This document shows positions 18,340 to 21,790 of a stretch of 64,000 nucleotides of DNA, piece by piece. Position 1 is the first letter of the stretch; each line of letters begins with the position of its first letter. The DNA is from the human T2T-CHM13v2.0 reference genome, Homo sapiens: positions 6,944,001 to 7,008,000 of the forward strand of contig CP086569.2 of assembly GCA_009914755.4 (NCBI GenBank). Reading direction: 5' to 3'. Both the position numbers and the translations under genes were made by a program. The notes under the pieces are model-generated. The model had not been told where the DNA came from and ran no database searches. It saw nothing but the letters and a program-made list of their open reading frames with translations.

Positions 18340-18890
18340 GGCTCAACATCTGCTTCCCTACTGGCAGTTTTAGGTCTTGGATTTCTTGATGAAAGTACAA
18401 AACAAGGACTTTCAAAGGAAGTGTCTTACAGTTACGGCTGGATGAGTTTCTGTGGTGGGGACGCCCTGCACACTGTAGGGTGTTGGGGAGTGTCCCTGGG
18501 CTCTGCTCAGCCTATGCCAGGGGCAGCAACCCCAGTTATGAAAACTAGAAATGTCTCCAGACATCACCAAGTATTCCTTGGGGGGAGGAAGGGCAAAGTT
18601 ATCTCCACTAGTGAACCACTGCGATAGACAGATAATCGACAGAGAGATGATACGTAGGTATATGTTGAGATGGATAGGTGATAAATAATAGATATTAAGA
18701 TAGACAGGTCTAAGTGATGGGTGATTGATAGGTGAATAGATGATGGGTAGCTAACATTAAGATAGATATTAAGATAGGTGATAGATAATAGATATTAATA
18801 CAGACAGATAGCTATAGATGATAGATATTGAGATACATATTGAGATGGATTTGTGATTGATAGATTGCAAATAGACAGAGCTCTCACGTT
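18340..18890 (+). repeat. Unit A of a local 4-copy array: a degenerate hAT-type MITE-like element (18340-18622, ending ..agttatctccactagtgaaccactg) followed by a compound (GATA/GATG/GATT)n microsatellite (18623-18890)
   Basis: The core is ctggatgagtttctgtggtggggacgccctgcacactgtagggtgttgg...cagcaaccccagttatgaaaactagaaatgtctccagacatcaccaagtattcc...gaaccactg. The tail is gatagacagataatcgacagagagatgatacg...gatagattgcaaatagacagagctctcacg. Confidence 0.75.
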
Positions 18891-19289
18891 ATGGGAAAAC
18901 ATTGAGCTTGTTTTTCTTGCGTTTCTGGAAGCCGCATGGAGTGCTACTCATGACAGGAATCAAGTTGAACAGTGACTGTTTGGAGTTCAAAGTGCCATTT
19001 GAACAACATGGTAGGTTTGCAAATGGCATTATCAGCATGTGGTATTTGAACAGCTACAGGTTGTAAGTTTGAAAAGACACCAGGGAATTTATGTAGTGTA
19101 CATGAAAGACCACATTCTGTTCAGTGATAATTCCATTTCTCAAGGCCATCTCAGACTCTTACAAGAGCCAAATAACTAAGTGTTCAAGGTGCAGAAGAAA
19201 TCCAGCAAAGTCACTTTCCCAGAGGGAAAGTTTTGTGCTCCTCCCAGAGACCATGACCATGATGCATACAGGAATTTCTGACATTTGGA

Positions 19290-19910
19290 TCCAGAACAGG
19301 GTTTCTCAACCTGAGCACTGCTGACATCTGGGCGTGGGTGATTCTCTGTGGTGGGGCATCCTGTGTGCACTGTAGGGTGTTGAGCAATGTGCCTGGGCTC
19401 TACCCACCAGATGGCAGCAGGACTCTTCCCCAGTGGTGACAACCAGAAAGATCGAGACAACCAAAAAGTTCTCTAGATGTTGTCTGATATCACGTGGGAG
19501 ACTGGAGGGTGTGGGGGTAAAATTGTGTGTAGTTACAAACCAGTGCAACAGAGAGATGAAAGGTGGATGGATGGATGGATGGATGATAGATAATTATTAT
19601 TCATAGATACATGGTTGATAAATGGATAGATGATATAGATAGATGATAGATTGATAAATGGATAAATGATATAAACAGATGGATGAATGGATGGATAGCT
19701 AAATATTCATAAATAGATATATGGTAGGTTGATAGATGAATAGATGATAAGGACTGATGATAGATTAATAGATAGATGATATAGACAGATGGATAGATAG
19801 GTGTTCATAAATACATACATGACTGATAGTTGGATAGTTTGTATAGATAGATGGTAAATTGATAGGTAGATGATGCAGACAGATGAATGGATGAATGGAT
19901 GGATGGACAG
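19290..19910 (+). repeat. Unit C of the same array: a MITE-like core (19290-19545: ..gtttctcaacctgagcactgctgacatctgggcgtgggtgattctctgtggtggggcatcctgtgtgcactgtagggtgttgagcaatgtgcctgggctctacccaccagatggcagcag...gtgacaaccagaaag...) followed by a (GGAT)n/(GATA)n/(GATG)n compound microsatellite (19560-19910)
   Basis: Same core motif as units A, B and D; the tail is ggatggatggatggatggatgatagataatt...gaatggatgaatggatggatgg. Confidence 0.75.
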
Positions 19911-20016
19911 GCCCTAGAACCCAATGACTTGGCTTTGCCACTCACTAGTTGTTGCAGGCTTTCTCTGAACAAGGATGAGATACCACAGTCACTGGTCACT
20001 GTTTGCTACGTGGTAG

Positions 20017-20322
20017 TTTTTTTTTTTTTTTTTTTTTTTTTGAGACAGAGTCTCACTCTGTCGCCCAGGCTGGAGTGCGGTGATGCAATCTTGGCTTGTT
20101 GCAACCGCTGTCTCCAGGGTTCAAGTAATTCTCTTGCCTCAGCCTCCAGAGTAGCTGGGATTATTGGTGCTCACCACAGTGCACAGCTAATTTTGTATTT
20201 TTAGTAGAGACCAGGTTTCACCATGTTGGCCAGGCTGGTTTCGAACTCCTGACTCAAGTGATTCATCTGTCTGTGCCTCCCACAGTGCTGGGATTACAGA
20301 CATGAACCACCCCACCCGGCCC
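20017..20322 (-). mobile_element. Alu SINE, full length
   Basis: A 23-nt poly-T then gagacagagtctcactctgtcgcccaggctggagtgcggtg ... gacatgaaccaccccacccggcc. Confidence 0.9.
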
Positions 20323-20369
20323 TCACGTAGTAGTTTCTTGAATTGCTCATTTTTGCCCGTTACAGTTAC

Positions 20370-20663
20370 TTTTTTTTTTTCTTTTAAGATGGAGTCTCGC
20401 TCTGTCGCCCAGGCTGGAGTGCAGAGGTGCGACCTCGGCTCACTGCAAGCTCCGCCTCCTGGGTTCACGCCATTCTCCTGCCTTAGCCTCCCAAGTAGCT
20501 GGGAGTACAGGCACTCGCCACCACGCTTGGCTAGTTTTTTGTATTTTTAGTAGAGACGGGGTTTCACCGTGTTAGTCCGGATGGTCTTGATCTCCTGATC
20601 TTGTGATCCACGTGCCTTGGCCCCTCAAAGTGCTGGGATTACAGGCGTGAGCCACTGCACCTG
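20370..20663 (-). mobile_element. Alu SINE, AluY-like (young subfamily diagnostic positions)
   Basis: ggagtctcgctctgtcgcccaggctggagtgcagaggtgcgacctcggctcactgcaagctccgcctcctgggttcacgccattctcctgcc...gggtttcaccgtgttag.c.gatggtcttgatctcctgatcttgtgatccacgtgcc. Confidence 0.85.
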
Positions 20664-20869
20664 GCCTACAGATACATTTTGCTACCTGCCATGAGGGAGA
20701 ATCTGTATTCAGTTTAGAATCATCGTCATCCTGGGGAGAGAATGTGCCTTAGCATGGCTGAGGCCAGGCTGCTGGTCCCTTCAGATGGTGCTTCCCGCTG
20801 TGCTGTCGTTCTAGGTGGCCCCGTTGCAATGCTGACTTGACTTGCACCAAGGCAGTACAGAATGGATGG

Positions 20870-21440
20870 GATTTGCTAAAGGTGCCCACCTGCCTCCACC
20901 TTTTGCTGGCAGTTCCAGGTGTTGGACTTTTTATTGATGAAGGTGTAAAGCAAGGATTTTCAGTGGAGGTACCTCACATTTACAGCTGGATGAGTCTCTA
21001 TGGTGGGGCCATCCTGCACACTGTAGGGTGTTGAACAGCATCCTTGGGCTCCCCCCAGCAGGGGCCAGGAGCAGCAACCCCAGTTCTGAAAACCGGAAAT
21101 GTTTCCAGATGTCACCAATGTTCCTTCCAGGAGGGAGGGCAAAGTTATCTCCACTAGTGAACCTCTATTATACATGACCAACAGAGAGATGATAGATGGA
21201 TACTATAGTAGGTATATGTTGAGATGGATAGGTGGTAGATAATATATATTAATATAGAACTAAATGATAGGTGACGGATAGGTGAATAGATGATGGGTAG
21301 CTGATAGATGATAGCTATTAAGATAGGTGATAGACAATAGATACTAATATAGATAGCTATAGATGATAGATATTGAGATGGGTAGGTGATTGATAGATTG
21401 ATGACCGATTGCATATAGACAGAGCTCTCATGCTAAAAGA
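20870..21440 (+). repeat. Unit B of the array: a MITE-like core (20870-21175) followed by a GATA/GATG-type tail (21176-21440). It is paralogous to unit A over its whole length, tail included (~85% identical by eye)
   Basis: ctggcagttccaggtgttggac...cagctggatgagtctctatggtggggccatcctgcacactgtagggtgttgaacagcatccttgggctcc...cagcaaccccagttctgaaaaccggaaatgtttccagatgtcaccaatgttcc...agttatctccactagtgaacc, and then gatggataggtggtagataat...gattgcatatagacagagctctcatg. Confidence 0.75.
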
Positions 21441-21444
21441 GAAT

Positions 21445-21790
21445 TTCTCAACCACAGCAGTGCTGACACATGGGGCGGGATCATGGAGGACTCTCTGTGG
21501 TGGAAGCTCTATGTACTGTAGGGTGTTGAGCACCATCCCTGGGCTTCAGATGCCAGGAGCATCCATCCCATCTGTGACAACCAAAGATGTCTCTAGATTC
21601 TACCAGGTTTCCTCTGTGCGGACAAAAAGTTATCCCCAGTTCTGAACCACTGTGATAGATAGTTGATGGATGGATAGATATTGATAACTGAGACAGATAT
21701 TTGATAGGTGACAGATATTGAGGTAGATGATAGCTATAGGTGATTGATGATTGCTAGATATTGAGATAGGTGATTGTCCGAGACGGATAC
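21445..21790 (+). repeat. Unit D of the array: a MITE-like core (21445-21650: aatttctcaaccacagcagtgctgacacatggggcgggatcatggaggactctctgtggtgg...gtactgtagggtgttgagcaccatccctgggc...gtgacaaccaaagatgtctctag...gttctgaaccactg) followed by a short (GATA)n-type tail
   Basis: It has recognisable hAT MITE termini (..ttctcaacc at the start and gaaccactg at the end). The tail is tgatagatagttgatggatggatagatattgataactgagacagatatttgataggtgacagatattgagg.... Confidence 0.75.

What the first reader, a model, noticed from the sequence alone, without database searches (positions are those of the whole stretch)
18340..21790. A local four-copy array of a MITE-like element, each copy followed by a compound GATA/GATG microsatellite
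Four paralogous units (A 18340-18890, C 19290-19910, B 20870-21440, D 21445-21790) share a ~200-280-bp core with hAT-type MITE termini (..ttctcaacc... ...gaaccactg) and the internal motif ctgtggtgggg...ctgtagggtgttgagca..atccctgggc...gtgacaaccaaa.atgtctc.aga. Each core is followed by a long GATA/GATG/GGAT compound microsatellite. Units A and B are homologous across both core and tail (~85% by eye). The core-plus-tail module was therefore duplicated as a block, a local segmental tandem duplication, rather than arising from four independent insertions. Two full-length Alus (20017-20663) later inserted between C and B. Arrays of GATA-type STRs on sex chromosomes are typical of highly polymorphic forensic markers. 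The four tails are candidate multi-allelic STRs in which paralogous cross-amplification would be a hazard.
Basis: seen in the sequence. Interest (0 to 1): 0.65.

Follow-up and report, generated by a model that had tools for sequence, protein, structure and literature searches.

The report
Old local copies of MER20 transposon
One ancient MER20 transposon and the GATA-rich stretch beside it were copied locally several times inside an intron of the sex-linked kinase gene PRKX/PRKY at least about 40 million years ago, and the copies are now decayed, neutrally drifting DNA rather than live forensic-type STRs.

Summary
The four units are real. Each is a full-length MER20 (a hAT-type non-autonomous DNA transposon) followed on the same strand by a C-poor, GATA/GATG-rich tract.

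- **Single founder.** All four cores, plus three orthologous or paralogous cores in capuchin (Cebus imitator), share 10 non-CpG substitutions. These are rare in 34 independent MER20 copies, so the cores descend from one insertion. None of 52 independent MER20 copies carries a GATA tail, so the module was amplified locally.
- **A and B.** They are a sharp-edged ~555-bp duplicate pair (5' flank 79%, core 81%, tail 86%), about as diverged as human and Cebus orthologues.
- **Arrangement.** Only B-D (B'-D'-E' in Cebus) lie head to tail. A and C are separated by unique DNA. Human has lost unit E, and the fetched Cebus stretch lacks A and C.
- **Alus.** Alu1 is shared with Cebus. Alu2 has an empty site there.
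- **STR idea fails.** Tails A, B and D have no perfect tetranucleotide run of 3 or more units, and C has only (GGAT)5. Tail B aligns with Cebus with 9 gap columns.
- **No constraint.** Array identity to Cebus is 77-84%, against 83-85% for intron baseline.

This is an ordinary, ancient repeat structure in the intron between the first two PRKX/PRKY-like exons seen in the window, probably PRKY. Interest is low.

The parts
18335..18404 (+). Unit A, 5' segment: ~70 bp of non-transposon flank, copied together with the MER20
   Evidence: Aligns with 20880-20950 at 79% identity. There is no homology further upstream.
18405..18622 (+). Unit A, MER20 core (full length, 218 bp)
   Evidence: nhmmer E 2e-61 against the core profile and 6e-21 against the MER20 consensus. 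Carries 8 of the 10 array-diagnostic substitutions.
18623..18895 (+). Unit A, degenerate GATA/GATG-rich tail with a short non-repetitive 3' end
   Evidence: GATA-word coverage 0.60 and C content 6%. Positionally homologous to tail B: score 151 against 29-89 for unrelated GATA tracts. No perfect tetranucleotide run of 3 or more units.
18896..19288 (.). Unique spacer between A and C
   Evidence: No significant similarity to MER20, to unit D, to the region upstream of B, or to the Cebus E' region.
19289..19546 (+). Unit C, MER20 core (258 bp, with a short internal duplication of the GACAACCA.AA motif)
   Evidence: nhmmer E 2e-53 and 1e-23. Carries 9 of 10 diagnostic substitutions. It is an old, separate lineage in the tree.
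19547..19907 (+). Unit C, degenerate GATA/GGAT-rich tail
   Evidence: TRF period 4, 45 copies, 61% matches. The longest perfect run is (GGAT)5 at 19564-19585.
20017..20321 (-). Alu1, inserted between C and B before the human-Cebus split
   Evidence: SRP-model hits on the minus strand. An orthologous Alu sits at L001 1508-1812.
20365..20665 (-). Alu2, inserted after the human-Cebus split
   Evidence: SRP-model hits. Cebus has the empty site GGTTACAGATACATTTT. In human the Alu is flanked by TACAGtTAC / TACAGaTAC.
20880..20950 (+). Unit B, 5' segment, homologous to the A 5' segment and continuous with the unique upstream DNA shared with Cebus
   Evidence: 82% identity to Cebus.
20951..21168 (+). 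Unit B, MER20 core (218 bp)
   Evidence: nhmmer E 6e-61. Carries 8 of 10 diagnostic substitutions. Orthologue at L001 2131-2345.
21169..21440 (+). Unit B, degenerate GATA-rich tail that ends exactly where the D core begins
   Evidence: 84% identity to the Cebus tail, with 9 gap columns in 268 aligned columns. No perfect tetranucleotide run of 3 or more units.
21441..21654 (+). Unit D, MER20 core (214 bp, best-kept termini TTTCTCAACC ... GAACCACTG)
   Evidence: nhmmer E 3e-55 and 4e-23. Carries 10 of 10 diagnostic substitutions. Orthologue at L001 2613-2835.
21655..21776 (+). Unit D, degenerate GATA-rich tail, truncated relative to Cebus
   Evidence: The alignment to the Cebus D' tail stops at 21776. 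GATA-word coverage 0.60.
21777..21920 (.). AT-rich ~145 bp that occupies the place of the rest of the D tail plus a fifth unit (E') in Cebus
   Evidence: Cebus has ~70 bp more tail, MER20 E' (L001 3043-3258) and an L1-like fragment before collinearity resumes at window 21921.

Best explanation
A single MER20 element (a non-autonomous hAT-Charlie DNA transposon) inserted next to or into a GATA-type simple repeat. The site lies in the intron between the first two PRKX/PRKY-like exons seen in the window.

About a fifth of the substitutions the copies now carry had accumulated when the MER20-plus-GATA module was first copied locally. This gave at least four old lineages: the A/B lineage, C, D and E. 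Three of them (B, D, E) still lay head to tail in the anthropoid ancestor.

The likely mechanism is misaligned recombination or replication slippage between the GATA-rich tracts. This step is inferred, not shown.

Later, at about the time of the catarrhine-platyrrhine split, a ~555-bp segment was duplicated once more to give the A/B pair. That segment comprised 70 bp of flank, one MER20 and one tail.

After that, Alu1 and then Alu2 inserted. The human lineage lost unit E, and the fetched Cebus stretch lacks A and C. Everything has since drifted neutrally. The tails are fossils of a microsatellite, not active STRs, and no function is indicated.
For: **Identity of the core**
- All 7 cores align end to end with MER20.
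- A consensus built here from 39 independent copies, fetched from metagenome host contamination, equals the recalled MER20 consensus apart from CpG decay.

**One founder**
- In 10 non-CpG columns all or nearly all array cores share a non-consensus base.
- Array cores carry 6-10 of these states. The 34 independent copies carry 0-4, median 1.
- The shared-derived ratio is ~0.9-1.6 for non-sister array pairs, against a mean of 0.61 for independent pairs.

**Local amplification with the tail**
- None of 52 independent MER20 copies has a GATA-rich 3' flank (maximum word coverage 0.15 against 0.53-0.62 in the array).
- No other MER20 occurs in the 92 kb examined.
- All units are in the same orientation.

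**The A/B block**
- A and B are collinear through flank (79%), core (81%) and tail (86%).
- The tail alignment score is 151, against 29-89 for unrelated GATA tracts.
- The homology edges are sharp.

**Age**
- The Cebus orthologue has B', D' and E'.
- In the tree, the clade (A,B,B') has 100% support and (D,D') has 99%. C and E' are deep separate lineages.
- K2P distance is 0.205 for A-B against 0.211 for B-B'. The polarised sites give a trichotomy.

**Neutrality and lack of STR dynamics**
- Array identity to Cebus is 77-84%, against 83-85% for intron baseline. There are 9 gap columns in the B tail.
- The longest perfect run is (GGAT)5.
Against: - The mechanism of copying is inferred only. Tails of non-sister units (C against D against A/B) align no better than unrelated GATA tracts, so their common descent rests on the cores and on the arrangement.
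- No 8-bp target-site duplication could be recognised.
- A and C are separated from the other units by unique DNA of unexplained origin. A simple unequal-crossover model does not account for every junction.
- A rare MER20 subfamily carrying the 10 states cannot be formally excluded with 34 comparison copies.
- Whether A arose before or after the Cebus split is unresolved. Whole-unit branch lengths (A 73, B 35, B' 54) favour before, but the core sites give a trichotomy.
- The Cebus sequence upstream of L001 1368 is not collinear with human and starts at an assembly gap.
Confidence: 0.85

Rival explanations
1. Four independent MER20 insertions occurred into a GATA-rich region, through target preference for, or chance clustering next to, GATA runs.
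For: Non-sister cores are only 58-68% identical. This is no higher than typical pairs of independent copies in my sample (mean 68%). Tails of non-sister units are not demonstrably homologous.
Against: There are 10 shared non-CpG derived states, which are rare in independent copies. None of 52 independent copies lies next to a GATA tract. Four to five copies in the same orientation within 3.5 kb, and none in the other 88 kb examined. A/B homology extends outside the element.
Confidence: 0.04
2. The unit is a composite mobile element, a longer MER20-related family that carries the GATA tract as part of the element. The copies would then be insertions of that family.
For: Repbase lists a second family, MER20B (PMC5753468). 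I could not inspect its sequence. Every core here has the tail on the same side.
Against: Each core has both MER20 termini, and the tail lies outside them. None of the 60 loci fetched with a MER20 21-mer shows such a tail. A 25-mer shared by tails A, B and B' is absent from the two other collections scanned, although those hold little primate DNA.
Confidence: 0.04
3. The cluster is maintained because it functions, for example as a clustered MER20 enhancer or insulator of PRKX/PRKY, or as a recombination-prone tract involved in X-Y exchange.
For: B and D have persisted in both human and Cebus. PRKX/PRKY is described as a hotspot of ectopic X-Y recombination (PMC11463111).
Against: Human-Cebus identity of cores and tails (77-84%) is no higher than neutral intron baseline (83-85%). 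Units have been lost in each lineage. No paper read places breakpoints at this array.
Confidence: 0.05

Closest known systems
MER20 (hAT-Charlie non-autonomous DNA transposon, Repbase/Dfam; listed among the MER20/MER20B/Charlie group of human DNA transposons in PMC5753468)
   Same: All four cores align over the whole ~218-bp consensus. Units C and D retain recognisable termini (TTTCTCAACC ... GAACCACTG). Non-CpG divergence from the consensus is 23-29%, typical of an old eutherian repeat.
   Different: Ordinary MER20 copies are single and dispersed, with unrelated flanks (0 of 52 have a GATA flank). Here one copy was multiplied in place together with its flank.
Tandem repeats derived from transposable elements in the human genome (Ahmed and Liang 2012, PMC3389668)
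   Same: The repeat unit contains a transposon sequence and occurs as head-to-tail copies: B-D in human, B'-D'-E' in Cebus.
   Different: The copy number is very low and the copies are very old and diverged (K2P 0.38-0.6 between lineages). Two units are displaced by unique spacers. TRF does not call it as an array at all.
Forensic-type sex-chromosome tetranucleotide STRs (DYS/DXS GATA markers)
   Same: GATA/GATG/GGAT word content, and location on a sex-linked gene.
   Different: There is no long uninterrupted run: the maximum is 5 units in tail C, and fewer than 3 units in the other tails. Tail B is nearly length-static between human and Cebus.

Membership tests
MER20 (hAT non-autonomous transposon) | Similarity to the family consensus over its whole length (~218 bp) | tested here: met
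   nhmmer against the recalled consensus gives E 1e-13 to 1e-25, covering positions 1-216. The consensus rebuilt from 39 independent copies agrees with the recalled one.
MER20 (hAT non-autonomous transposon) | Terminal inverted repeats CAGKGKTTCTCAACC ... GGTTGAGAACCACTG | tested here: met
   Recognisable in D and C, and in the Cebus D' unit. Degenerate but alignable in A and B.
MER20 (hAT non-autonomous transposon) | 8-bp target-site duplication flanking the insertion | tested here: inconclusive
   No matching 8-mers flank any core on reading the junctions. This is expected for an old element whose flanks were reshuffled by later duplication.
MER20 (hAT non-autonomous transposon) | Dispersed copies at many unrelated loci | tested here: met
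   A 21-mer of the consensus retrieved 60 metagenome contigs (host DNA). All contain MER20 with unrelated flanks.
MER20 (hAT non-autonomous transposon) | Assignment by RepeatMasker/Dfam, including MER20 versus MER20B | not testable with these tools
   No Dfam or Repbase library is available. The MER20B sequence was not seen.
Local segmental duplication (A/B pair) | Collinear homology extending beyond the transposon into flank and tail, above low-complexity background | tested here: met
   Flank 79%, core 81%, tail 86%. Tail score 151 against 29-89 for unrelated GATA tracts. The dot plot shows a continuous diagonal.
Tandem (head-to-tail) array | Units directly abutting, in the same orientation | tested here: inconclusive
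   Met for B-D (junction at 21440/21441) and for B'-D'-E' in Cebus. Not met for A-C (393-bp unique spacer) or C-B (~320 bp of unique DNA plus two Alus).
Polymorphic tetranucleotide STR | Long uninterrupted run of one 4-nt unit (roughly 8 or more units, from general knowledge of STR mutability) | tested here: not met
   The longest run is (GGAT)5 in tail C. Tails A, B and D have no tetranucleotide run of 3 or more units.
Polymorphic tetranucleotide STR | Length variation between individuals, or listing as a DYS/DXS marker | not testable with these tools
   No population data or STR catalogue is available. Indirectly, tail B differs from Cebus by only 9 gap columns in 268.

The most novel reading that the evidence does not exclude
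The MER20-plus-GATA module is a fossil proto-satellite that has sat in this PRKX/PRKY intron since before the anthropoid radiation. It might still matter, either as a cluster of MER20-derived regulatory elements or as a recombination-prone tract contributing to PRKX/PRKY ectopic X-Y exchange.
Probability: 0.04. Interest if true: 0.45.

Novelty: new member of a known kind. Interest (0 to 1): 0.12.

Why it matters
It matters little in itself. It is a clean small example of a transposon copy being multiplied in place together with a neighbouring simple repeat. It also shows how such a module decays and loses units over at least about 40 million years.

Practically, these tracts should not be pursued as STR markers. 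The four cores should not be counted as four independent MER20 insertions in transposon censuses or dating.

Tried and rejected
- **Rfam scan of 17.5-22.5 kb.** Only Alu-related hits (SRP, mir-1268, mir-3135 and similar). Nothing for the cores.
- **Sequence in the literature.** A literature search for a printed MER20 consensus found no sequence, so I rebuilt the consensus from 60 metagenome contigs instead.
- **Exact-protein look-up.** An 86-aa ORF across tail B is not on record.
- **Collection scans.** Prokaryote-genome and viral collections were scanned with a 25-mer shared by tails A, B and B'. No hits.
- **Block duplication A+C to B+D.** Rejected. C and D are much more diverged (K2P 0.38) than A and B (0.21), and are not sisters.
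- **Is the A-C spacer a degraded MER20, that is a D paralogue copied with A?** A collinear alignment exists, but it is not significant (z = 1.5; 46 of 500 shuffles reach it).
- **Homology upstream of A versus upstream of B, and of the spacer versus other flanks.** None.
- **Orthologue of Cebus L001 690-1368 in the window.** None, so the fate of A and C in Cebus is open.
- **X or Y.** No PRKX structure exists in the PDB to compare with. The papers read gave no residue-level data. The assignment to PRKY rests on my recalled PRKX sequence, which matches the Cebus exon at 100% and the window at 97.7%.
- **Breakpoint literature.** Papers on PRKX/PRKY exchange gave no positions within the gene and no STR inside it.
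Full report
**Setting.** The window is primate DNA dense with Alus. It carries three exons of a PKA-family kinase on the + strand, at 12211-12429, 34231-34494 and 49437-49559.
- The nearest named database proteins are 'PRKY' of Cebus imitator and 'protein kinase X' / PRKX of other mammals.
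- My recalled human PRKX sequence matches the Cebus exon at 100% and the window's middle exon at 97.7%, with D>E and R>H. I remember those differences as PRKY residues. The window is therefore probably PRKY on Yp, but this was not verified.
- The finding lies in the intron between the first two of these exons.

**Observation.** Reading the sequence, the repeat finder, a self-BLAST and a dot plot all show four units in direct orientation.
- A profile built from the cores hits exactly four places in the 64-kb window (E 1e-53 to 1e-61), three places in 28 kb of the Cebus orthologue, and nothing else.
- The refined coordinates are A 18335-18895, C 19289-19907, B 20880-21440 and D 21441-21776.
- The two Alus at 20017-20321 and 20365-20665 (minus strand) are confirmed by SRP-model hits.

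**What the core is.** The cores align end to end with the MER20 consensus as I recall it (nhmmer E 1e-13 to 1e-25).
- To avoid relying on memory, I scanned the metagenome collection with a 21-mer of that consensus. This retrieved 60 contigs, which I take to be host DNA.
- Every contig holds a MER20 copy, most of them full length.
- The majority consensus of 39 distinct copies equals the recalled consensus, except at decayed CpGs and in homopolymer lengths.
- MER20 is listed among the human hAT-type DNA transposons of Repbase (PMC5753468).

**One insertion or four?** All copies were aligned to a profile of the independent copies.
- In 10 non-CpG columns, all or nearly all of the seven array cores (four human, three Cebus) share the same non-consensus base.
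- Array cores carry 6-10 of these states. The 34 independent copies carry 0-4, median 1. Four of the states occur in 0-2 of about 30 copies.
- The excess of shared derived states holds for every non-sister pair of array cores: ratio 0.9-1.6, against a mean of 0.61 for independent pairs.
- The 200 nt downstream of 52 independent MER20 copies are never GATA-rich (maximum word coverage 0.15, against 0.53-0.62 for the array tails; C content 22% against 3-7%).
- The family therefore does not carry a GATA tail, and the array cores share a history after insertion. One founder copy was multiplied in place together with the adjacent GATA tract.

**The A/B pair.** A and B are collinear over about 555 bp. 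Identity is 79% in a 70-bp non-transposon 5' segment, 81% in the core and 86% in the tail.
- The tail alignment scores 151, against 29-89 for pairs of unrelated GATA-rich tracts. Those controls include two other such tracts in the window.
- Homology stops sharply. Nothing upstream of A resembles the DNA upstream of B, and the 393-bp spacer after A resembles nothing nearby.
- A weak collinear match of the spacer to unit D is not significant.
- The 3' edge of the A/B homology coincides exactly with the first base of core D.

**Comparison with a New World monkey.** A protein search with the middle exon returned a Cebus imitator gene on a 93.6-kb contig. Its locus was fetched as L001.
- L001 1368-2961 is orthologous to window 19885-21776.
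- Cebus has Alu1 but an empty site for Alu2. The Cebus site reads GGTTACAGATACATTTT, and human has the repeat TACAGtTAC ... TACAGaTAC around the Alu.
- Cebus has B' and D' head to tail as in human, and then a third unit, E'. In human, E' is replaced by about 145 bp of AT-rich sequence.
- Upstream of L001 1368, Cebus is not collinear with the window, and the stretch begins at an assembly gap. The absence of A and C there may be deletion, rearrangement or misassembly.

**Order and age of events.**
- In a neighbour-joining tree rooted on the consensus, the clade (A,B,B') has 100% bootstrap support and (D,D') has 99%. C and E' are deep, separate lineages at K2P 0.38-0.6 from everything else.
- C and E' therefore predate the human-Cebus split. 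Each has been lost, or is missing from the sequence available, in one lineage.
- A+C was not copied as a block to make B+D, because C-D (0.38) is far more diverged than A-B (0.21).
- Within (A,B,B') the core gives a trichotomy: K2P 0.205, 0.211 and 0.240, and polarised shared sites of 2, 2 and 3.
- Whole-unit branch lengths (A 73, B 35, B' 54) fit a duplication before the split better than one after it. I conclude only that the A/B duplication is about as old as the split. From general knowledge that is roughly 40 million years.
- The 10 shared states are about a fifth of each copy's 40-55 non-CpG changes, so the first copying happened early in the element's life.

**Mechanism.** What is shown is common descent of the cores, co-duplication of flank and tail for A/B, and head-to-tail junctions for B-D(-E').
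- What is inferred is that misalignment between GATA-rich tracts (unequal exchange or replication slippage) produced the head-to-tail units, and that a separate small duplication placed A.
- Tails of non-sister units cannot be shown to be homologous. No target-site duplication is recognisable.

**Function and STR potential.**
- Human-Cebus identity is 80-83% in the cores and 77-84% in the tails, against 83-85% in four other single-copy stretches of the gene's introns in the window. There is no sign of constraint.
- Tails A, B and D have no perfect tetranucleotide run of 3 units. Tail C has one (GGAT)5.
- TRF reports period 4 only for C, at 61% matches.
- Tail B aligns with its Cebus orthologue with 9 gap columns in 268.
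- These are decayed relics. The suggestion of multi-allelic STRs with cross-amplification risk is not supported. I could not consult STR catalogues or population data.

**Comparison with known kinds and verdict.**
- The cores are members of MER20. Whole-length similarity, termini and dispersed relatives were tested and met. The target-site duplication was inconclusive. Dfam assignment was not testable.
- The arrangement is a small, old instance of a transposon-containing repeat unit amplified in place, a phenomenon catalogued for the human genome (PMC3389668).
- It is a real but ordinary feature.

Noticed in passing
window 12211-12429, 34231-34494, 49437-49559 (+): Three coding exons of a PRKX/PRKY-type kinase. 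The middle exon differs from my recalled human PRKX by D>E and R>H, and the first by L>R. This suggests the Y-linked copy, PRKY.
   Followed up: partly
window 33887-34220: A GC-rich minisatellite (58-bp unit, 5.4 copies, 80% matches; also scored as 174 bp x 1.9) ends a few bases before the splice acceptor of the middle exon. In Cebus, one ~95-bp stretch (L001 9863-9957) matches several of the human repeats, so the array may have expanded in the human lineage.
   Followed up: partly
window 32500-33900 (reads as GATA-like on the minus strand): A long degenerate minisatellite with a 24/48-nt unit (TAGATGTTAATATATAGGTGTAGA on the minus strand) resembles the ~26-nt period of tails A and B. It is interrupted at about 32720-32900 by unrelated sequence and is partly conserved in Cebus (L001 8867-9957). 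No MER20 lies next to it.
   Followed up: partly
window 52030-52700 (minus strand): Another GGAT/GATA-rich tract of about 670 bp (TRF ATCC x 38.8, 75% matches; longest perfect run 5 units). It is in the opposite orientation to the array and has no MER20 core beside it.
   Followed up: partly
window 61514-61843: A 166-bp unit repeated twice at 96% identity, apparently a recent tandem duplication that includes part of an Alu-like sequence.
   Followed up: no
L001 3302-3656 and 18694-19620 versus window 14927-16089: Cebus carries L1-like fragments that match a single place in the window (85-89%) but lie out of order. One sits right after unit E'. These are probably lineage-specific L1 insertions rather than orthologous DNA.
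   Followed up: no
L001 1040-1400 and window 18085-18240: Both species have what looks, from my memory of Tigger/MER2-type ends (GGATAAGGGGGACTACTG-like), like the 3' end of such an element just upstream of the array region. The two copies do not align with each other, and the human one has its last ~40 bp duplicated.
   Followed up: no
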